Part shown: positions 4,958 to 17,170 of the stretch, one piece after another | Layout of the letters: the number at the start of each line of letters is the position of its first letter | Position numbering within the stretch: position 1 is the first letter of the stretch | Origin: Sulfuritalea hydrogenivorans sk43H | Lineage (GTDB): Bacteria > Pseudomonadota > Gammaproteobacteria > Burkholderiales > Rhodocyclaceae | Direction of reading: 5' to 3' | DNA length: 24,000 bases | Assembly: GCA_945870205.1 (NCBI GenBank) | Contig: CAMBRI010000009.1 | Coordinates: 6,287-30,286, forward strand | Program-made: the position numbers and the translations under genes | Notes under the pieces: generated by a model | What the model saw: the letters and a program-made list of their open reading frames with translations, nothing else | The model's database searches: none | Told to the model about the DNA's origin: nothing

Positions 4958-5236
4958 CGGGTGTCGGACAGACCCCGGCTTCCTACGTAGAAACCGCAGT
5001 TTTCAGCGTAAAGCACGGATAAACAAAGCTGGTCCGGTTTGAGACTATTGGGCTCAATCGCATGCGTGCGTTCCGCGCGCATGAAGAGCAGTGTCTTGTC
5101 GAGCCCGGATTCAGCATGTCCGCAACGACCGCAAGTGATGCAGCATTTTCAACGAGACCCCAGGAAAATTCGTCACCGCCATGTTTTCGACTGAAATCGA
5201 CACCAGGTCTTTTGAACGCTGCGCAAGGGCGTCGCG

Positions 5237-11336
<6,100 letters not shown>

Positions 11337-11344
11337 GCGCACCC

Positions 11345-11746
11345 TCAATCCGCCAGCGCGGGCACCTCGCGCTTGCTGCCGTCATCGTTGATCGCGACAT
11401 AGGTGAATTGCGCCTCGGTGACTTTGACCACCACCGGATTTGTCGGATTGCGCTCGGCATAAACCTGCACGTCCACGGTGATCGACGTCCGGCCGACCTT
11501 CACCACGTTGGCGTAGAAACTGACAATGTCGCCGACCGAGATTGGCTGCTTGAACAGGAAGGAATTCACCGCCACGGTGGCGATGCGGCCGCGTGCCAGG
11601 CGCATTGCCGGTATGGCGGCGGCGATGTCGCATTGGGCCATGACCCAGCCGCCGAAAATGTCGCCATTGCCGTTCATGTCGGCCGGCATCGGCATCACGC
11701 GCAGCACCGGCTCACGACCCGGTATGAGTACTCCGTGGTGAGGCAT
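11345..11746 (-). CDS. YciA-like hotdog-fold acyl-CoA thioesterase
   Basis: Motif [26 protein letters not shown] is typical of YciA-type thioesterases. The ORF track start is 11803, but I prefer the ATG at 11746 (MPHHGVL), which has GGAGAG 5 nt upstream. The upstream extension is explained as a relic of another gene. Confidence 0.8.
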
Positions 11747-11799
11747 CAGCGCTCTCCGCTCTGCAAGTAATTCATCGGACCTCCAGTATAGTGGGCGAC
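11746..11799 (-). pseudogene. Orphan 3'-terminal fragment of a fadB-like gene (encodes ..VAHYTGGPMNYLQSGER*)
   Basis: On the minus strand this reads cac tat act gga ggt ccg atg aat tac ttg cag agc gga gag cgc TGA. The real fadB-like 3' end at 13926-13979 reads ccc tat acg ggt ggg ccg atg aat tat ttg agc aaa ggt gcc gcg TAG. Nine consecutive residues are identical (YTGGPMNYL), and all four nucleotide differences within them are synonymous. The TGA overlaps the thioesterase ATG as TGATG. Confidence 0.7.
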
Positions 11800-12195
11800 C
11801 CATACAGGAGCCGTGAGAATCTCACAACTCCGCCAGAACACGCCGACGTTCTAACGCTCATGGCACCCAGTACCACCCGCCGGAGATGAAGCGCGCAAAC
11901 GGCAAATTGAAGGCCCCCGCCCCCGTTCCACGGCCGGCCCTGCATGGCCGGCCGCCAGCGGCGGCGCGAAGCAGTGCTTGGCGAAATCCCGCCTACGCCC
12001 CCTTCCCAGGGCGGGGCTACCAGTCGGCTCGCTTCGCTCGGTTATCACCAGCCGCTTCGAACGAGTTGTTCCATTACGTTAAATTGAGAGTTCGGAGCAT
12101 TTCTCTGCTTTTCATGCCATTCTGTTCGGAATGGACAGGTTTTGCGGATATTTTCGTGTTCAGTTGCACCGCAATTCGACACCCAACTGACCCGC

Positions 12196-12224
12196 TTGCA
12201 TTTCCCCAATTGAGGGCCGATAAT
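12196..12224 (+). promoter_or_regulatory. Sigma70-like promoter for the NTase/HEPN pair, implying a leaderless mRNA
   Basis: TTGCAT (12196-12201), exact 17-nt spacer, GATAAT (12219-12224). The ATG at 12232 begins 8 nt after the -10 hexamer and has no Shine-Dalgarno sequence. The surrounding DNA is AT-rich. Confidence 0.5.
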
Positions 12225-12231
12225 CCCCGTA

Positions 12232-12876
12232 ATGGGGAACGAGAAGCCAACTTCAATCGCAGACGTCCTGTTTTCCGGTGTGCAGCAACGGGTGATCGGC
12301 CTGTTGTTCGGGCAGCCGGATCGGTCCTTTTACGCCAATGAAATCGAGAGGTTAGGAAAAACCGGGCGTGGCGCCTTGCAGCGCGAACTGGAGCGCATGA
12401 CGGCCTCGGGCTTGGTAACGCTGACGGTGATCGGAAAGCAAAAGCACTATCAGGCCAACAAGGTTTCGCCCATCTTCAACGAACTGCGCGGAATCGCGGT
12501 CAAGACCTTCGGCTTGTCCGACATCCTGCGACTTGCTCTGGCCCAATTCATCCCGGAAATCGTTTTTGCGTTCATTTTTGGATCGGTGGCCAAAAACACC
12601 GATACGGCCGCGAGCGACATCGATGTGATGGTGATCGCCGACGGATTGAGCTACAGCGTCCTGTTCGAAGCTCTGACGAAAGCCGAGGAAACCCTGGGTC
12701 GCAAGGTCAGCCCAACGCTCTATTCGAAGGAAGAATTCAACAAGAAGCTGGCGGGAGACAACCACTTCGTGAGCCGCGTCCTCAACCAGCAAAAAATCGT
12801 CCTTATAGGAGACGAAAGTGCTATCCGCACAGGAAAACCTGCAGAACCTGCTGAAGATCGGCAAACTCAAGGCTGA
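12232..12876 (+). CDS. wHTH plus minimal nucleotidyltransferase protein (MntA-like antitoxin candidate)
   Basis: 214-aa ORF. N-terminal winged-helix-like region (VQQRVIGLLFGQPDRSFYANEIERLGKTGRGALQRELERMTASGLV). Pol-beta-type NTase signature FGSVAKNTDTAASDIDVMVI (GS..DxD). Confidence 0.75.
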   Translation: MGNEKPTSIADVLFSGVQQRVIGLLFGQPDRSFYANEIERLGKTGRGALQRELERMTASGLVTLTVIGKQKHYQANKVSPIFNELRGIAVKTFGLSDILRLALAQFIPEIVFAFIFGSVAKNTDTAASDIDVMVIADGLSYSVLFEALTKAEETLGRKVSPTLYSKEEFNKKLAGDNHFVSRVLNQQKIVLIGDESAIRTGKPAEPAEDRQTQG

Positions 12877-13249
12877 ACCCCCAAATTCGAGGGAACTTGA
12901 CGGACTGCTAAGCTCCGCCGGACGAAAGTTGCCCGACGCCGAGAACCTGTCGCTCTCGCCCGATAGCCGCTTTAGTCTTGCCTATGACGCAGCCCATACC
13001 TTCGCCCTCGCCGCCTTGCGCTGGCATGGCTATCGCTCGGAAAACCGGTACATCGTTTTTCAGGTTCTCGGGCACACCCTGAATTTTCCGACAGCCAAAT
13101 GGCGATTCCTGGATAGCTGCCATCAGAAACGGAATGCCGCGCTGTACGAGGGCGACTACACCGACGACGAGCAACTGATAAAGGAACTCGTTGCGGCTGC
13201 AAAGGACTTGAAGGCTGCTGTGGAGTCGCTGGGACCGGTCCGCACATGA
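12818..13249 (+). CDS. HEPN-like protein (HepT-like toxin candidate, atypical motif)
   Basis: 143-aa ORF. The GTG start at 12818 is preceded by AGGAG (12807-12811) with a 6-nt spacer, and the gene overlaps the NTase gene by 59 nt. All-helical-looking sequence. The C-terminal segment WRFLDSCHQKRNAALYEG contains R-N-x3-Y where DUF86/HepT-type proteins have R-N-x3-H, plus an adjacent R-x5-H (RFLDSCH). Confidence 0.6.
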   Translation: MLSAQENLQNLLKIGKLKAEPPNSRELDGLLSSAGRKLPDAENLSLSPDSRFSLAYDAAHTFALAALRWHGYRSENRYIVFQVLGHTLNFPTAKWRFLDSCHQKRNAALYEGDYTDDEQLIKELVAAAKDLKAAVESLGPVRT

Positions 13250-13272
13250 CATTACCAAGCATTGGCGATTCG

Positions 13273-13462
13273 CCCCATCACCCAGGGCAATCGCATGAAG
13301 GATGCTCCCTCCCCTTCAAAGGTTGGGGTGGGGATGGGACAAAACAAGCATGGGGAAGGACAGCAAACCACGTCATCGAACCCCATCCCCCTCCCGGCCT
13401 CCCCCTTGAAGGGGGAGGAGAACACCACGGTGTCATTCATGCGATTGCCCTGCCCCATCACC
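13273..13462. mobile_element. 170-bp MITE-like element with 17-bp perfect terminal inverted repeats and 10-bp flanking direct repeats
   Basis: The left terminal repeat cagggcaatcgcatgaa (13283-13299) is the exact reverse complement of ttcatgcgattgccctg (13436-13452). It is flanked on both sides by ccccatcacc (13273-13282 and 13453-13462). The interior arms are imperfect inverted copies carrying G/C-tract hairpins, for example cctccccc-ttgaa-gggggagg. There is no coding capacity. Confidence 0.7.
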
Positions 13463-13637
13463 GTCTCGCCAGCGCCGACTTTTGCGACAGGTTCAATGTG
13501 ACCCTCGCGTCAGGACGGCGTACTGTATCAATGCTTCGTTTGCGCCGATTCCAACGCTACTTCGCAGCTGCCGCATTCAAGCAAGGTATCCGCGCTGTTT
13601 GCCGGAAGGTTAATGGCAATTGATTGAACAGGACCCC

Positions 13638-13925
13638 TCAGCCCTCGGCAGAGTAAATGAGTTGCCGTCGATGCTTCAGTGCGAGAAATACCACCTCAAC
13701 TTTGGAATGGGCGTACAAGGCAACGTGCCGGCTTAACACGTACTCGCGCAAATTCGGCAGACCCGCCTGTGTCGCAAGCGCTTGCACTGAATTGGCTCGC
13801 AACCGTGCTTGTGCTGAACGTCCGCCGAGAAAACGTGCCGGGCGCCCATTGGCTGGCAACCAGCTCACGACGGCTACCATTTCACGCAACTCCTGCTTCA
13901 GGCGCGCCGCGGCGGGTAACGCTCT
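13638..13925 (-). pseudogene. ParE/RelE-like toxin relic lacking its native start and any antitoxin gene
   Basis: The reading frame directly after the fadB-like TAG, and in the same frame, reads RALPAAARLKQELREMVAVVSWLPANGRPARFL...LREYVLSRHVALYAHSKVEVVFLALKHRRQL. This resembles ParE-family layout: N-terminal A..(D/E)L.E(I/M)......N...A.RF and C-terminal Y-hydrophobic strand-H.R. Only a TTG (13889) or ATG (13880) internal start is available. The similarity was judged by eye. Confidence 0.3.
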
Positions 13926-15869
13926 CTACGCGGCACCTTTGCTCAAATAATTCATCGGCCCACCCGTATAGGGCGCAAAGCCGGTGCCGAAGATTACCCC
14001 GGCATCGGCCAGTTCCGCATCCGCCACCACGCCATCCTTCACCAGGCGTTGCGTGGCTTCGAGCAGCGGCTTCAGCAGGCGCTGCGCAAGCTCCGAATTC
14101 GCGCCGCCACCGCCCGACTTCTGCGCCTTGCCATCCACCCATGCGTAGAAGCCCTTGCCCGACTTCTTGCCGAGATTTCCAGCACTGACCAGTTCAATCA
14201 ATTTTTTGGGCGGATCGGCCTCACCCACCAGTTGCCGGCCCGCGGCCACGGCGACGTCGAGCCCGACGGTATCGGCCAGTTCGATCGGGCCCATCGGCAT
14301 GCCGAAGGCCAGCATCGCGGCATCGATGGCTTCCGGCGCGATGCCTTGATCGACGCAGCGCATGGCCTCGTTCATGTAGGGCGCGAGCACGGCATTGACC
14401 AGGAAGCCCGGCGCATCCTTGACCGGCAGCGGCAGCTTGTCGATCCGGCGCACGAAAGCAGCGGCGCGCTGCGCCACTTCCGGCGCGGTGATCTCACCGG
14501 CTACCACTTCCACCAGCGGCATCATCATTACCGGGTTGAAGAAGTGGATGCCGACCAGGCGCGAGGGGTTCTTGAATGTCGCGGCGATGTCGGCGAGCTT
14601 CAACGAGGATGTGTTCGATGCGATCAGCGCACCGGGTTTGGCGCGCGCCTCGATGTCGGCGAACAGCGCCTGCTTGGCTTCAAGGTTCTCGAAGATGGCC
14701 TCGATGATGACGTCGGCCTGGCGCACGCCGTCGCCCTTCGGGTCGGCAATCAGGCGGTCGAGCGCGAAGCGGGCCAGCATCTTGTCGCGCAGCTTCTTTT
14801 CGAGGAATTTCGCGGCACGGCCGACGGCCGGCGCAATGCGTTCGATGGACTGATCCTGCAGCGTCACCGTCATGCCGCGCAGCACGCACCAGGCGGCAAT
14901 GTCGCCACCCATGACCCCGGCGCCGACCACATGCACATGGCGCGGGGCGAAACCGGAAGCCTCCTTGCCAAAGCCCTTGAGCCGGTCCTGCAGGAAGAAA
15001 ACCCGGATCAGGTTGCGCGTGGTCGGGTGTTTGACCAGCGCGTCGAGCGAAGTGGGCCGATCCGCCGGCACCGCCAGCGTGTTGCCGCCGTAGTTCTGCC
15101 ACTGATCGATGATGGCGTAGGGCGCCGGGTAGTGTTCCTGCCGGGCGCGCTTGGCCACCTGCTTGCGGACAGCGCTGGCGACCATGCCTTTCAGCGGCCC
15201 GTTCATCAGCTTCTGCATGAACGGAAGCTTTTCCTGGCGCGGCGGCTTGCCCGACAGCACCAGCATGCGCGCCGCATTTTCCATGACGCGCGGCGGCACG
15301 CATTCGTCGGCGAGGCCCATTTTTTTCGCGCGGTTGGCGTCGATATTCTTGCCGGTCAGCATCATGTCCAGCGCCGCCGCCGGGCCAACTATTTGCGGCA
15401 GGCGCAGCATGCCACCCCAGCCGGGGACGATGCCGAGCATGACTTCCGGCAGCGCGAACTTGGTGCCCGGTTCATCGACCGCGATGCGGTAGCGGCAGGC
15501 CAGGGCCAGTTCGGTGCCGCCGCCCATGCAGTGGCCGCGCACCAGCGCCAGCGGCGGGTAGCTCACGTCCGCCAGTCGGTTGTAGCTGTCCCAGCCGCGC
15601 TTGATCAGCGCTCTGGCCTTTTCCGGAGTGTCGGCTGAAGTGAATTCCTCGATGTTGGCGCCGGCGATGAATCCGGCTTCCTTGGCGGATTTGAAGATCA
15701 GACCCTTGGGGGGATTCTTTTCGCATTCATCGAGGATGAGTCCGAGTTCGGTCATCACTGCCGCGCCCAGGGTATTGGTCGAGGAGTCGGCGGTGTCGAG
15801 GATGGCCCAGGCGAGCCCCGCATTTGGGGCGCTTGTCTCGCGTTCGAGTTTCCAGTGCGTGTAAGTCAT
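13926..15869 (-). CDS. Bifunctional enoyl-CoA hydratase / 3-hydroxyacyl-CoA dehydrogenase (FadB/FadJ-like)
   Basis: I place the start at the ATG at 15869 (MTYTHWKLE), which overlaps the thiolase stop as TGATG. The longer track ORF to 16136 overlaps the thiolase gene. N-terminal crotonase fold (GFIAGANIEEF, GHCMGGGTELALAC). 3HCDH Rossmann motif (VHVVGAGVMGGDIA). C-terminal 3HCDH domain. Confidence 0.88.
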   Translation of the reverse strand: MTYTHWKLERETSAPNAGLAWAILDTADSSTNTLGAAVMTELGLILDECEKNPPKGLIFKSAKEAGFIAGANIEEFTSADTPEKARALIKRGWDSYNRLADVSYPPLALVRGHCMGGGTELALACRYRIAVDEPGTKFALPEVMLGIVPGWGGMLRLPQIVGPAAALDMMLTGKNIDANRAKKMGLADECVPPRVMENAARMLVLSGKPPRQEKLPFMQKLMNGPLKGMVASAVRKQVAKRARQEHYPAPYAIIDQWQNYGGNTLAVPADRPTSLDALVKHPTTRNLIRVFFLQDRLKGFGKEASGFAPRHVHVVGAGVMGGDIAAWCVLRGMTVTLQDQSIERIAPAVGRAAKFLEKKLRDKMLARFALDRLIADPKGDGVRQADVIIEAIFENLEAKQALFADIEARAKPGALIASNTSSLKLADIAATFKNPSRLVGIHFFNPVMMMPLVEVVAGEITAPEVAQRAAAFVRRIDKLPLPVKDAPGFLVNAVLAPYMNEAMRCVDQGIAPEAIDAAMLAFGMPMGPIELADTVGLDVAVAAGRQLVGEADPPKKLIELVSAGNLGKKSGKGFYAWVDGKAQKSGGGGANSELAQRLLKPLLEATQRLVKDGVVADAELADAGVIFGTGFAPYTGGPMNYLSKGAA

Positions 15870-17170
15870 CAAACTGCCTCCACCAATACGGCACCGCCCT
15901 GCCCGCCGCCTATGCAGATCGTGGCGATGCCGCATCTGCTGCGTTTGCCACCCTGTTCGCGCCGCAGGATGTGCAGCAGATGCAGCACGATGCGCGCACC
16001 CGAGGCCCCGACCGGATGACCCAGTGCGATGGCGCCGCCGTCGACGTTCAGCTTTGCCGGGTCCAGAGTGCCCAGCGGCGCGTCCAGACCCAGTTCGTCC
16101 TTGCAATAGGCGGGGTCTTCCCAGGCCTTGATGCAACCCATCACCTGTGCGGCGAAGGCCTCGTTGATTTCCCAGGCGTCAAGGTCGTTCAGGCCGAGGC
16201 CGTGGCGCTGCAGGATGGGTGTCGCCGCATGCACCGGGCCGAGGCCCATCTGCGCCGGGTCGAGGCCGGCCCATTGCGTGTCGGTGATCCTGCCGATGGG
16301 TGTCAGCTTGTACTTCTCCACCGCCTCGCTTGATGCCAGCAGCAGCCAGGCGGCGCCATCGGTAATTTGCGAACTGTTGCCCGGCGTGATCTTGCCGTAG
16401 CTGCGATCGAAGAAGGGCTTGAGTTTGGCCAGGCCCGCGAGGTTCGAGTCATGGCGCACACCGTCGTCTTCGGCATACACCGTGCCGTCGCTGCCGATCA
16501 GCGGCACGATTTCATCGAAGCGGCCGGCCTTCTGCGCGGCCGATACCTTCTGGTGGCTATCGACCGAGAAGGCATCCATCTGCTGGCGCGAAATGCCGAA
16601 CTTCCAGGCCAGGTTCTCGGCGGTCTGGCCCATCATCAGGTTCACCACCGGGTCGGTCAGGCCCTTGACGATGCCGATCACGGGGGTGAGCAGTGCGCCT
16701 ATGCGCAGTTTGGCGAACATGCCGAGGCGGGCACCCAGCGTGCGTGCCTGCGCCATCCGCGAGAACCACATGACCATCTTGTCCGAATAGAGCAGGTGGG
16801 TGCGCGACAACGCATCGACACCGCCGGCCATGACAAGTTGCGAGCGCCCGTTCTGAATGTTGGCGATGGCCGAATCGATGGCCTGCATCCCTGAGGCGCA
16901 GTTGCGCATCACGGTCCAGCCCGGCACCTTGTTGCCGCAACCCAGGCGCAAGGCAATAACGCGGCCAATATTGACTTCATCAACGCTGGGACCGGCGCAT
17001 CCGACAATCACTTCGTCGAGCTGGTCGGGGGCAAAGGGCTGGCGCGCCAGCAGGACGCGGCCGGAGATCGTGGCGAGGTCGGAGGCCGAAAAGGGGCCGG
17101 GGACGTTGCGCGATTTCAGGAAGGGTGAGCGGGCGCCATCGACGATATAAACGGGTTCGAATTTGCTCAT
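15869..17170 (-). CDS. Acetyl-CoA C-acyltransferase (3-ketoacyl-CoA thiolase, FadA/FadI type)
   Basis: 433-aa ORF. Active-site Cys context MRNCASGMQAIDSA. NSSQITDGAA, NEAFAAQ, GGAIALGHPVGASGARI and C-terminal CIGGGQGGAVLVE. Has the FadI-like insertion (ARTLGARLGMFAKLRIGALL). Confidence 0.9.
   Translation of the reverse strand: MSKFEPVYIVDGARSPFLKSRNVPGPFSASDLATISGRVLLARQPFAPDQLDEVIVGCAGPSVDEVNIGRVIALRLGCGNKVPGWTVMRNCASGMQAIDSAIANIQNGRSQLVMAGGVDALSRTHLLYSDKMVMWFSRMAQARTLGARLGMFAKLRIGALLTPVIGIVKGLTDPVVNLMMGQTAENLAWKFGISRQQMDAFSVDSHQKVSAAQKAGRFDEIVPLIGSDGTVYAEDDGVRHDSNLAGLAKLKPFFDRSYGKITPGNSSQITDGAAWLLLASSEAVEKYKLTPIGRITDTQWAGLDPAQMGLGPVHAATPILQRHGLGLNDLDAWEINEAFAAQVMGCIKAWEDPAYCKDELGLDAPLGTLDPAKLNVDGGAIALGHPVGASGARIVLHLLHILRREQGGKRSRCGIATICIGGGQGGAVLVEAV

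What the first reader, a model, noticed from the sequence alone, without database searches (positions are those of the whole stretch)
11746..13979. Duplicated, synonymously diverged fadB 3' end brackets a 2.2-kb integrase-less islet that splits a beta-oxidation operon
The functional 3' end of the fadB-like gene (13926-13979, ..FAPYTGGPMNYLSKGAA*) has a second copy 2.18 kb downstream (11746-11799, ..VAHYTGGPMNYLQSGER*). Across the nine shared residues the DNA differs at four positions: acg/act, ggt/gga, ggg/ggt and tat/tac. All four are synonymous third positions, so these are two diverged copies of one coding end rather than a chance repeat.

The downstream copy ends in TGATG overlapping the thioesterase start. 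The thiolase-fadB junction in the same operon (15867-15871) uses the same coupling. I therefore infer that the native order was fadB-thioesterase, and that the intervening DNA arrived carrying its own fadB-3' mimic. This is how integrative elements that target gene 3' ends behave.

The insert is more AT-rich. My hand counts give 24/60 G+C for the line starting at 12061 and 31/60 for the lines at 12721 and 13081, against 39/60 for the fadB line at 14041. Its genes run antiparallel to the operon. It holds a toxin-antitoxin-like pair, a MITE-like element and a toxin relic, but no recombinase. It could be a decayed island, a cis-mobilisable att-flanked cassette, or an element moved by an unrecognised mechanism. 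About 250 bp of GC-rich non-coding DNA (11804-12060) inside it remains unexplained.
Basis: partly seen in the sequence, partly recalled or inferred. Interest (0 to 1): 0.75.

Follow-up and report, generated by a model that had tools for sequence, protein, structure and literature searches.

The report
Gene islet splitting a fatty-acid operon
A 2.2-kb patchwork of foreign DNA (a toxin-antitoxin-like defence pair, a dead toxin gene and small repeats) sits between two normally overlapping fatty-acid genes, at a spot where related bacteria repeatedly gain and lose genes; it looks like an ordinary insertion hotspot, not a new kind of mobile element.

Summary
The last codons of fadB (13944-13976) recur 2,180 bp downstream (11764-11796), directly before the thioesterase start. 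They match at 27/33 bases, and all four differences within the nine shared codons are synonymous.

About 20 Sulfuritalea-like relatives have an empty site, where fadB overlaps the thioesterase (TGATG). About 23 others carry different genes at the same junction, each with a different fadB tail. None of 20 inserts encodes a recombinase.

Junction positions differ between independent insertions. The window's left junction abuts a truncated parE-like toxin gene. The new fadB tail (LSKGAA*) is six unrelated codons, not a fadB mimic.

The orphan copy probably persists because it carries thioesterase expression signals. TATACT is invariant in 20 empty-site genomes, free to vary in occupied fadB copies, and kept in 17 of 19 remnants.

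The cargo is an MNT/HEPN-type pair (PADLOC candidate PDC-M05), a MITE with a 10-bp target duplication, a ParE-like relic and dispersed GC-rich repeats.

Best reading: a non-autonomous islet in a recombination hotspot, made by C-terminal displacement through illegitimate or homology-facilitated recombination. A decayed or trans-mobilised att-flanked element is not excluded. Interest is modest.

The parts
15869..17170 (-). Thiolase gene. Its stop overlaps the fadB start (TGATG).
   Evidence: Pfam Thiolase_N/C; junction sequence
13926..15869 (-). Functional fadB (enoyl-CoA hydratase / 3-hydroxyacyl-CoA dehydrogenase, 647 aa). Native up to ...YTGGPMNY(L).
   Evidence: Pfam ECH_1, 3HCDH_N, 3HCDH; 85-90% aa identity to Sulfuritalea/Rhodocyclales fadB
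13926..13946 (-). Displaced-in tail of fadB: TTG AGC AAA GGT GCC GCG TAG (LSKGAA*). Foreign to the empty-site tail (L[QNK]SGE[HR]*). Homologous at DNA level to the tails of L103 (LNNVAE*) and L035 (LDKDVA*).
13944..13976 (-). Upstream copy of the direct repeat, inside functional fadB. It contains TATACG at 13965-13970.
13641..13905 (-). 5'-truncated ParE-like toxin relic, with no antitoxin. The called ORF is 80 aa (13641-13880). Homology continues upstream to about 13905, in the same frame as fadB.
   Evidence: phmmer gave 60 hits. Full-length relatives are 124-130 aa, and the relic matches their C-terminal ~80 aa. Pfam ParE_toxin on relatives, P0246 24.1 bits. Alignment. Full-length relatives follow a Phd/YefM antitoxin gene.
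13273..13462 (.). MITE: a 170-bp element (13283-13452) with 20-bp terminal inverted repeats (95%), flanked by a 10-bp target-site duplication CCCCATCACC (13273-13282 and 13453-13462).
   Evidence: Inverted repeat I3; sequence. Same-species contig L089 diverges exactly at the element end, so a second copy or an assembly join exists there.
12818..13249 (+). HEPN-like partner (143 aa). Matches PADLOC PDC-M05B. Invariant R96-x5-H102.
   Evidence: PADLOC 8e-59. No Pfam family. Invariant columns. AlphaFold model pLDDT 91.6. Best PDB folds are HEPN and HepT toxins, TM 0.57-0.64, Foldseek E 0.01-0.1.
12232..12876 (+). wHTH-nucleotidyltransferase (214 aa). Matches PADLOC PDC-M05A. MntA-like minimal nucleotidyltransferase.
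   Evidence: Pfam Polbeta/NTP_transf_2; PADLOC 8e-79; NCBIfam MntA 34 bits, below its cut-off of 60
12099..13250 (+). The transferable two-gene module with its promoter region. It is the unit shared with other genomic contexts.
   Evidence: 88.6% nt identity over exactly this span with L100-L102, which lie in a different context. 78% with L104-L108, where it sits between a Ser/Thr kinase gene and thiF.
11800..12098 (.). GC-rich non-coding filler made of dispersed REP-like repeats, plus a palindromic motif GTGAGA-T-TCTCAC (11813-11825).
   Evidence: Pieces at 11850-12082 recur at unrelated positions in L011, L014, L020 and L096, beside the remnant in L003 and L050, and in Burkholderia megaplasmids. 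Only a sub-threshold Rfam hit, CC0196, 23.8 bits against a gathering score of 35. Motif.
11746..11799 (-). Orphan fadB 3' end (..YTGGPMNYLQSGER*) with the native tail. It holds TATACT (11785-11790), GGAGAG (11752-11757) and the TGA that overlaps the thioesterase ATG.
   Evidence: conservation analysis
11345..11746 (-). YciA-like acyl-CoA thioesterase (133 aa). In relatives it is the last, translationally coupled gene after fadB.
   Evidence: Pfam 4HBT. NCBIfam YciA 131.9 bits, below the equivalog cut-off of 162. Synteny.

Best explanation
The segment 11800-13925 is a non-autonomous, composite islet. It sits in a recurrent insertion and recombination hotspot at the fadB / yciA-like thioesterase junction of Sulfuritalea-like Rhodocyclales.

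Shown:
- The ancestral state is fadB overlapping the thioesterase.
- Foreign DNA has been joined to fadB just after the last constrained residues (..GGPMNY). fadB now ends in six foreign codons.
- The original 3' end survives as an orphan immediately before the thioesterase.

Inferred mechanism: 'C-terminal displacement' by illegitimate recombination, most plausibly homology-facilitated. A short homologous anchor in the fadB 3' end supplies one joint and a non-homologous joint supplies the other. This leaves a short staggered duplication. Later indels remodelled the islet (MITE insertion, REP accretion, loss of the phd and 5' parE sequence, module gain). Homologous recombination in the conserved flanks then moved it between lineages.

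Inferred reason for the recurrence and the duplication: selection, not site-specific enzymology. Only joints within the ~20-nt unconstrained tail keep fadB intact. Where the cargo points away from the thioesterase, only events that leave a copy of the fadB 3' end in front of the thioesterase keep its expression signals. Those signals are a -10-like TATACT about 38 nt before the ATG, the GGAG ribosome-binding site, and the start codon.

The cargo is an MNT/HEPN (type VII toxin-antitoxin-like, PADLOC candidate PDC-M05) addiction or defence module. The islet no longer has any means of moving by itself. The longest identical run between the repeats is 11 nt.
For: Empty sites are seen in about 20 relatives and different occupants in about 23. 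These include Ada/AraC+EamA, Phd-PIN, an MFS transporter, Sir2, a SoFic-like protein, and MNT/HEPN with or without HNH and TPR genes. There are at least five unrelated fadB tails.

On an NJ tree of the fadB body, occupied states are scattered among empty ones. L018 and L021 carry the tail of another clade on a native fadB body. This indicates recombinational transfer.

No recombinase family appears among 109 ORFs from 20 inserts, nor in the window.

Boundaries differ between events. The right joint lies about 5 nt (L099), 52 nt (window, L045), 66 nt (L018) or 85 nt (L035) before the thioesterase ATG. The left switch in L018 lies 60-100 nt before the stop.

L099, whose MFS cargo is co-directional, has no duplication and no TATACT.

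The window's left joint lies within about 20 nt of a truncated parE-like gene. In the largest clade the fadB tail is simply the antisense of a convergent Ada/MGMT gene end (sequence).

The TAT and ACT third positions have entropy 0 in 20 empty-site genomes, against 1.16 and 1.0 in 23 occupied fadB copies. TATACT is retained in 17 of 19 remnants even where the flanking remnant has decayed.

The islet is a patchwork. The 1,152-bp module occurs on its own in other contexts. The MITE has its own target duplication. The repeats are dispersed. The sister islet in L103 shares the junction but holds other genes.

Precedent for this mechanism and pattern exists at rhs and T6SS loci (PMC5361080).
Against: In the three loci with a fresh duplication (window, L035, L018), the native-to-foreign switch in fadB falls within the last ~100 nt. 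In the window and L035 it is compatible with a switch at TATAC. This is tighter than a long homologous anchor would predict and is what a short attP-like mimic would give.

Most occupied fadB copies in separate lineages share GGG at the second Gly codon, which no empty-site genome has.

The window/L103 tail and the L035 tail are homologous although their fadB bodies belong to different clades.

Homology-facilitated illegitimate recombination is rare where it has been measured (PMC5361080, PMC3240628). Natural competence of this organism is unknown.

No canonical sigma-70 promoter is found at the remnant, because no good -35 is present. The promoter role of TATACT is therefore inferred from conservation only.

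All same-species contigs carry the islet, so no gain or loss is seen within the species.
Confidence: 0.55

Rival explanations
1. The islet is a decayed or cis-mobilisable integrative element. A site-specific recombinase recognises an attB in the fadB 3' end. That recombinase has either been lost from the islet or is encoded elsewhere and acts in trans. The 33-nt repeats are attL and attR. Different cargoes in relatives are different members of one cassette-like family.
For: Direct repeats of the target gene's 3' end bracket the insert and the target ORF is kept intact. This is the classical pattern of e14 in icd, with its icdC orphan (PMC13626634).

Empty sites exist. The same junction is used repeatedly.

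The native-to-foreign switch in the window and in L035 is compatible with one point, TATAC.

A homologous tail plus about 20 nt is shared by the window/L103 and L035 despite different cargo and different fadB clades.

The closest parE-like homologue (P0241) lies next to a tyrosine integrase gene in L109. One relative (L017) has three tandem tyrosine recombinases within the variable region.
Against: No recombinase is present in 20 inserts or in the 24-kb window. The L017 trio sits 350 bp inside an already occupied site and is absent from relatives with the same tail.

Right boundaries differ by up to 80 nt, and L099 has no repeat at all.

The L018 crossover lies 15-55 nt upstream of TATAC.

Sequence conservation between the window and L035 stops about 20 nt after the stop codon. 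No conserved arm or inverted-repeat binding sites are evident.

The left end abuts a truncated toxin gene rather than an intact element end.

Only 11 nt are identical between the repeats.

No fadB-3'-like sequence was found in 2.9 million viral contigs.
Confidence: 0.25
2. The occupied state is old in the genus. A single ancient insertion created the duplication. The many 'empty' genomes are revertants, formed by homologous pop-out between the two fadB-end copies. The variety of cargo reflects internal turnover only.
For: Recombination between the direct repeats would regenerate exactly the empty configuration with the native tail. Internal turnover is evident in the contrast between the window and L103, the Phd-PIN additions, and the L018 deletion derivative. 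One empty locus (L042) is nested in the large occupied clade.
Against: Outgroups (Niveibacterium-like and other Rhodocyclaceae) have fadB directly followed by the thioesterase, so adjacency is ancestral.

At least five unrelated tails and joints argue for several primary events.

The remnants of the window, L018 and L035 are intact and carry the lineage-specific native tail. That is not expected for sequence that has been non-coding since an ancient event.
Confidence: 0.12
3. The downstream copy is the last remnant of a second, deleted fadB paralogue that once preceded the thioesterase.
For: A second fadB-like fragment was seen by tblastn in L035.
Against: In the window no fadB homology extends upstream of about 11799. 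The local alignment score is 16 against a shuffle mean of 18 (p=0.87).

The L035 fragment is only about 85 nt and is near-identical to L035's own fadB end.

No relative has two fadB genes at this locus.

The remnant aligns to the single-copy fadB-thioesterase junction of empty-site relatives.
Confidence: 0.02

Closest known systems
e14 / phage 21 integration into E. coli icd, leaving the icdC orphan 3' fragment (PMC13626634 and Hill et al. 1989 cited therein)
   Same: Inserted DNA is bracketed by two copies of a gene's 3' end. The upstream copy completes a functional gene. The orphan lies at the far end. The differences are conservative or synonymous.
   Different: e14 encodes its own integrase and excises on SOS induction. 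It supplies a genuine 50-odd-codon replacement end and uses one defined att core. Here there is no recombinase, only nine shared codons, and a new tail of six unrelated codons. Boundaries also differ between independent insertions.
C-terminal displacement with orphaned 3' fragments at rhs, CDI and T6SS effector loci, attributed to homology-facilitated illegitimate recombination (PMC5361080; Jackson et al. 2009 cited therein; PMC3240628)
   Same: A conserved gene body acts as anchor. A new 3' end plus cargo is inserted. The old 3' end is pushed downstream and kept. The process recurs at the same locus, needs no element-encoded recombinase, and spreads further by ordinary homologous recombination.
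   Different: In those systems the displaced part is a functional toxin domain with its immunity gene. Here it is a 6-7-codon unconstrained tail of a metabolic enzyme. The orphan seems to be kept for the downstream gene's expression signals rather than as an immunity or toxin reservoir.
Core defence hotspots between conserved flanking genes, e.g. cDHS1/2 of Pseudomonas aeruginosa (PMC10250203)
   Same: A variable, lower-G+C region is bounded by the same core genes in all strains. [quoted passage not shown]
   Different: The scale differs: 1-5 kb here against a median of 26 kb. The P. aeruginosa hotspots adjoin non-coding RNA genes. This one lies inside an operon, between two translationally coupled genes. 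About half of its occupants are ordinary transport or repair genes.
Type VII MntA/HepT (MNT-HEPN) toxin-antitoxin systems; PADLOC candidate PDC-M05 (cargo only)
   Same: A minimal nucleotidyltransferase is followed by an overlapping HEPN-fold protein with an Rx4-6H motif. Both genes match the PDC-M05A/B models over their full length.
   Different: The nucleotidyltransferase has an extra N-terminal winged-helix domain and scores below the NCBIfam MntA cut-off. The HEPN partner matches no Pfam family. Neither toxicity nor phage defence has been tested.

Membership tests
Site-specific integrative element (integrase-mediated island or prophage targeting a gene 3' end) | Encodes, or lies next to, a tyrosine or serine recombinase | tested here: not met
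   No recombinase in the islet or the 24-kb window. None among 109 ORFs of 20 inserts at the same site in relatives. The only recombinases seen are the L017 trio, a secondary insertion.
Site-specific integrative element (integrase-mediated island or prophage targeting a gene 3' end) | attL and attR share an identical core at the exact element boundaries | tested here: inconclusive
   The repeat is 33 nt at 82% identity, and the longest identical run is 11 nt, CCGATGAATTA. This is compatible with an old att pair or with a decayed staggered duplication.
Site-specific integrative element (integrase-mediated island or prophage targeting a gene 3' end) | Independent insertions use the same crossover position | tested here: not met
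   Right joints lie about 5, 52, 66 and 85 nt before the thioesterase ATG. The L018 left switch lies 60-100 nt before the stop. L099 has no repeat.
Site-specific integrative element (integrase-mediated island or prophage targeting a gene 3' end) | The element supplies a homologous replacement for the displaced 3' end | tested here: not met
   The new tail LSKGAA* is unrelated to the native L[QNK]SGE[HR]*. It lies directly before a parE-like relic. In the largest clade the tail is the antisense of an Ada/MGMT gene end.
Site-specific integrative element (integrase-mediated island or prophage targeting a gene 3' end) | Empty sites exist in related genomes | tested here: met
   About 20 relatives have fadB overlapping the thioesterase. 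None was found within the same species.
Site-specific integrative element (integrase-mediated island or prophage targeting a gene 3' end) | Excision to a circle and restoration of attB | not testable with these tools
   This needs reads or PCR from a culture or sample. Pattern scans for related junctions found nothing.
C-terminal displacement by homology-facilitated illegitimate recombination | Conserved 5' gene body, variable 3' end, with the former 3' end orphaned downstream | tested here: met
C-terminal displacement by homology-facilitated illegitimate recombination | Non-homologous joint at variable positions, cutting through unrelated sequence | tested here: met
   Variable right joints. 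The left joint lies beside a truncated parE-like gene.
C-terminal displacement by homology-facilitated illegitimate recombination | Donor-type tract in the anchor gene next to the insert | tested here: inconclusive
   L018 has about 60-100 nt of donor-clade sequence. L035 and the window have at most about 40 nt. Gene conversion between the repeats cannot be excluded.
C-terminal displacement by homology-facilitated illegitimate recombination | Host takes up and recombines foreign DNA (competence or conjugation) | not testable with these tools
   The organism is known only from metagenome contigs.
MITE (13283-13452) | Short non-coding element with terminal inverted repeats and a target-site duplication, present in several copies | tested here: met
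   20-bp inverted repeats at 95%. 10-bp duplication CCCCATCACC. The alternative flank in L089 implies a second copy. Only one copy lies within the window.
MntA/HepT-type (type VII) toxin-antitoxin / PADLOC PDC-M05 | Nucleotidyltransferase plus an overlapping HEPN-fold partner with Rx4-6H | tested here: met
   PADLOC 8e-79 and 8e-59. Invariant R96-x5-H102. HEPN/HepT best folds, TM 0.57-0.64. NCBIfam MntA is below its cut-off.
MntA/HepT-type (type VII) toxin-antitoxin / PADLOC PDC-M05 | Toxicity neutralised by AMPylation; phage defence | not testable with these tools
   Experimental.
ParE toxin (relic at 13641-13905) | Full-length ParE fold with a cognate upstream antitoxin | tested here: not met
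   The relic matches only the C-terminal ~80 residues of 124-130-aa relatives. No antitoxin gene is present, whereas relatives follow phd/yefM.

The most novel reading that the evidence does not exclude
The fadB 3' end of Sulfuritalea-like bacteria is the attachment site of a cassette-capture system. An unrecognised, trans-acting site-specific recombinase would insert small integrase-less cassettes (toxin-antitoxin pairs, Fic, Sir2, transporters) at or next to TATAC. It would displace the fadB tail each time. This would be a chromosomal gene-capture platform analogous to an integron, but embedded in the last codons of a metabolic gene.
Probability: 0.1. Interest if true: 0.75.

Novelty: new member of a known kind. 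Interest (0 to 1): 0.33.

Why it matters
This is a compact natural example of how genes are wedged between two translationally coupled operon genes without killing either. The upstream gene accepts a new, unconstrained tail. The downstream gene keeps a copy of the old 3' end because that copy appears to hold its own start signals.

It also identifies a usable hotspot, fadB|yciA, for finding small defence and toxin-antitoxin modules in Sulfuritalea-like freshwater and groundwater bacteria.

It carries a caution for genome scans. A duplicated gene end that differs only at synonymous sites does not by itself prove an att-flanked mobile element. Selection on an embedded regulatory signal and on the coding copy can produce the same picture.

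If the TATACT box proves to be an internal promoter, the locus would show a dead coding fragment preserved as a promoter-bearing leader.

Tried and rejected
- **Viral contig scan.** I scanned for a fadB-3'-like sequence (TAYACNGGNGGNCCNATGAAYTA) as a possible phage attP. There were no matches.
- **JGI metagenome scan.** I scanned for the window/L035 tail consensus and found nothing, not even the same species. A circle-junction search there would therefore have been uninformative and was not run.
- **Protein search with the fadB C-terminal 200 aa.** It returned mostly contig-end fragments. It was useful only for showing tail hypervariability and for three extra contexts.
- **Sigma-70 promoter scan of 11300-14100.** No site was found, so the promoter role of TATACT rests on conservation alone.
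- **Rfam scan of the islet.** Only a sub-threshold CC0196 hit fell in the GC-rich repeat. There are no tRNA or tmRNA genes in the window.
- **Test for longer decayed fadB homology upstream of the remnant.** An apparent by-eye similarity was not significant (p=0.87).
- **Idea that the new tail is the in-frame N-terminal part of the parE-like gene.** Spacing is collinear with relatives, but residue identity upstream of about 13905 is not convincing. It is left as a possibility only.
- **Extended homology between the window's right end and the upstream region of the L100 module.** Only a 19-nt palindromic motif is shared, in inverted orientation.
- **Plasmid and phage collections.** There are only distant (64%) module relatives on a few plasmids and nothing in phages.
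- **Integron-cassette reading.** I considered and rejected it: there is no integron integrase, no attI context and no attC-like structure at the boundaries.
- **XerCD/dif-hijacking reading.** I considered and rejected it: the repeat does not resemble a dif site (own knowledge of the dif consensus; not formally scanned).

Full report
**1. Observation**

The window's minus strand carries a beta-oxidation operon: a TetR regulator, an acyl-CoA dehydrogenase, thiolase (15869-17170) and fadB (13926-15869). A YciA-like thioesterase (11345-11746) lies 2.18 kb further on.

The end of fadB and the DNA just before the thioesterase share a direct repeat, 13944-13976 and 11764-11796. It is 33 nt long at 82% identity. 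No shuffle of the window gives a match as good: score 18 against a maximum of 15 in 300 shuffles.

The nine shared codons (YTGGPMNYL) differ at four bases, all synonymous third positions. The downstream copy runs into TGATG over the thioesterase start. The thiolase/fadB junction uses the same overlap.

**2. Relatives show both empty and occupied sites**

A scan of one genome per species with fadB returned 80 loci. The nearest are Sulfuritalea and other Rhodocyclales genomes assembled from metagenomes, at 85-90% amino-acid identity.

In about 20 of them fadB ends ...YTGGPMNYL[QNK]SGE[HR]* and its TGA overlaps the thioesterase ATG. This is exactly the arrangement implied by the window's downstream copy. 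The window's 11700-11791 aligns at 90% with that junction in L012. More distant relatives (Niveibacterium-like and others) also have the two genes adjacent. Adjacency is therefore ancestral and the 2.2 kb is an insertion.

About 23 other loci have something else between the two genes, 0.9 to 5.1 kb or more. The occupants are:
- an Ada/AraC-MGMT regulator plus an EamA transporter;
- Phd-PIN toxin-antitoxin pairs;
- an auxin-efflux-type carrier;
- an MFS transporter;
- a Sir2 deacetylase;
- a SoFic-like protein;
- a PLP enzyme;
- a rhomboid protease.

Each kind of occupant comes with its own fadB tail after ...PMNY: LANR*/LASRG*/LANKG*, LQTRGA*, LKTKFQ*, LETGKA*, LDKDVA*, LNNVAE*, and LSKGAA* in the window. 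That tail is hypervariable throughout the order, so it is not under constraint.

On a neighbour-joining tree of the fadB body, occupied loci are scattered among empty ones. L018 and L021 combine a native-type fadB body with the tail and cargo of the large occupied clade. Cargo therefore also moves between lineages by recombination.

Within the window's own species, every contig found (more than 20, from several samples) carries the same islet. No empty allele was seen.

**3. What the islet contains**

Listed in the direction of fadB transcription:

1. *The six-codon tail.*
2. *A ParE-like relic.* Its 80-aa ORF matches only the C-terminal two-thirds of 124-130-aa proteins. Those proteins score weakly as ParE toxins and follow a Phd/YefM antitoxin gene in other genomes. 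Here the N-terminal ~45 residues and the antitoxin are missing. The homology starts within about 20 nt of the fadB stop.
3. *About 180 bp of spacer.*
4. *A 170-bp MITE.* It has 20-bp terminal inverted repeats and a 10-bp target duplication, CCCCATCACC.
5. *A two-gene module on the opposite strand.* One gene encodes a winged-helix nucleotidyltransferase. The other encodes a 143-aa protein with no Pfam family. The pair matches PADLOC's candidate defence system PDC-M05 over full length (8e-79 and 8e-59). The small protein has an invariant R-x5-H motif. Its confident predicted fold (pLDDT 91.6) is closest to HEPN domains and HepT toxins. The module 12099-13250 recurs as a unit in unrelated contexts, at 88.6% and 78% nucleotide identity.
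6. *About 300 bp of GC-rich DNA.* It is built from repeats that occur at other places in related genomes and in Burkholderia megaplasmids.
7. *The orphan fadB end.*

A related genome (L103) has the same fadB tail junction and the same module, but HNH, TPR and other genes in place of the relic and the MITE. The islet is therefore an accreted patchwork with a history of its own, not one intact element.

**4. Why the orphan copy is kept and why the differences are synonymous**

Among 20 empty-site genomes the third positions of TAT and ACT never vary (entropy 0), although neighbouring third positions do. Among 23 fadB copies separated from the thioesterase, the same positions vary freely (entropy 1.16 and 1.0).

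In 17 of 19 occupied loci..CC[C/G]TATACTG.. survives 29-38 nt before the thioesterase ATG, followed by a GGAG box. This holds even where the rest of the remnant has decayed beyond recognition.

One of the two exceptions is L099, the only locus found whose cargo consists solely of a gene on the same strand as the thioesterase and able to drive it. The other exception, L049, is a distant outgroup.

The simplest reading is that the fadB 3' end contains a DNA-level signal for thioesterase expression, most likely a -10 box. I infer this from conservation. A consensus scan finds no full sigma-70 promoter.

The coding copy can change only synonymously. The orphan copy is frozen by its regulatory role.

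**5. Mechanism**

Against a self-encoded or conserved site-specific system:
- no recombinase is present in the window or in 20 inserts;
- the joints fall at different positions;
- one event has no duplication;
- one joint lies beside a truncated gene;
- in the largest clade the new tail is merely the antisense of a convergent gene's end.

This is the pattern described as C-terminal displacement with orphaned 3' fragments. It has been attributed to homology-facilitated illegitimate recombination at rhs and T6SS loci (PMC5361080). Selection explains the apparent site specificity. Only the ~20-nt unconstrained tail can be hit without harming fadB. With outward-facing cargo, only events that leave the fadB end in front of the thioesterase keep that gene expressed.

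I give this explanation 0.55.

The site-specific alternative keeps 0.25, for four reasons:
- in the three loci with a fresh duplication, the switch to foreign sequence lies within the last ~100 nt of fadB;
- occupied copies in separate lineages share a GGG codon that is absent from empty sites;
- the window/L103 and L035 share a homologous tail on different fadB backgrounds;
- e14 in icd is a close classical precedent (PMC13626634).

An ancient single insertion with repeated pop-out gets 0.12. A deleted paralogue gets 0.02.

**6. Verdict**

The finding is real and was carefully observed, but its more exciting interpretation is not supported. It is a new example of a known kind of thing: a small, non-autonomous islet in a core-gene-flanked hotspot (compare PMC10250203), formed by tail displacement.

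Two points are modestly interesting. The fadB|thioesterase junction is used recurrently across a genus. And a dead coding fragment is probably preserved as the promoter-bearing leader of the next gene.

Noticed in passing
L017:2806-5775: Three tandem tyrosine-recombinase genes (328, 330 and 341 aa) lie inside the variable region, 350 bp downstream of fadB in one relative. This layout is that of a 'recombinase in trio' element (name from own knowledge). It is absent from relatives with the same fadB tail, so it is probably a secondary insertion.
   Followed up: partly
L089:3000-3500 versus window 13452-13470: One same-species contig matches the window from the thioesterase up to the MITE. At the exact end of the MITE it switches to unrelated genes (MoeA, M48 peptidase, tryptophan-halogenase fragments) instead of fadB. 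The cause is either a second MITE copy producing an assembly join or a real rearrangement through the MITE.
   Followed up: partly
window 11810-11828; L100:1056-1078: A 19-nt motif with a perfect 6-1-6 palindrome (GTTGTGAGATTCTCACRGC) lies just beside the orphan fadB end. It also lies upstream of the closest copy of the nucleotidyltransferase module in another context, in the opposite orientation. In L100 it is part of a ~58-nt tandem repeat. Its function is unknown.
   Followed up: partly
window 11904-12001: A GC-rich hairpin-containing repeat (GGCCGGCCATGCAGGGCCGGCC...) gives a sub-threshold Rfam hit to Caulobacter sRNA CC0196 (23.8 bits against a gathering score of 35). It recurs in several Sulfuritalea loci and, at 79%, in unannotated intergenic DNA of Burkholderia megaplasmids.
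   Followed up: partly
window 13881-13928: The parE-like relic is in the same reading frame as fadB. They are separated only by the fadB TAG and 14 further codons. Read-through of that stop would fuse fadB to the toxin fragment.
   Followed up: no
window 11747-11803: An in-frame ATG at 11803-11801 would add 19 residues (MGRPLYWRSDELLAERRAL) to the thioesterase by reading the orphan fadB end in another frame. Gene callers and relatives use the ATG at 11746.
   Followed up: no
L003:10950-11030 and other loci of the LANR-tail clade: In the largest occupied clade a convergent Ada/AraC-MGMT gene ends on the opposite strand exactly at the fadB stop. The fadB tail ..ANR* is therefore encoded by the antisense of that gene's last codons.
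   Followed up: partly
L082, L084, L086 (same species), region corresponding to window 5000-7800: Strains of the same species differ upstream of the large sensor kinase. The 842-aa hybrid kinase of the window is replaced by two unannotated genes plus an Hpt fragment, or is truncated next to a DDE transposase.
   Followed up: no
L109:5001-6531: The closest full-length relative of the parE-like relic (66% identity) lies convergent with a tyrosine integrase gene, 110 nt away and beside arsenic-resistance genes.
   Followed up: no
L104-L108 (e.g. L104:6001-7018): The same MNT/HEPN module (81% aa identity) sits wedged between a Ser/Thr kinase gene and thiF in another lineage. The HEPN gene's stop is 1 nt from the thiF start. 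This is another case of the module lodging tightly against a core gene without any mobility gene.
   Followed up: no
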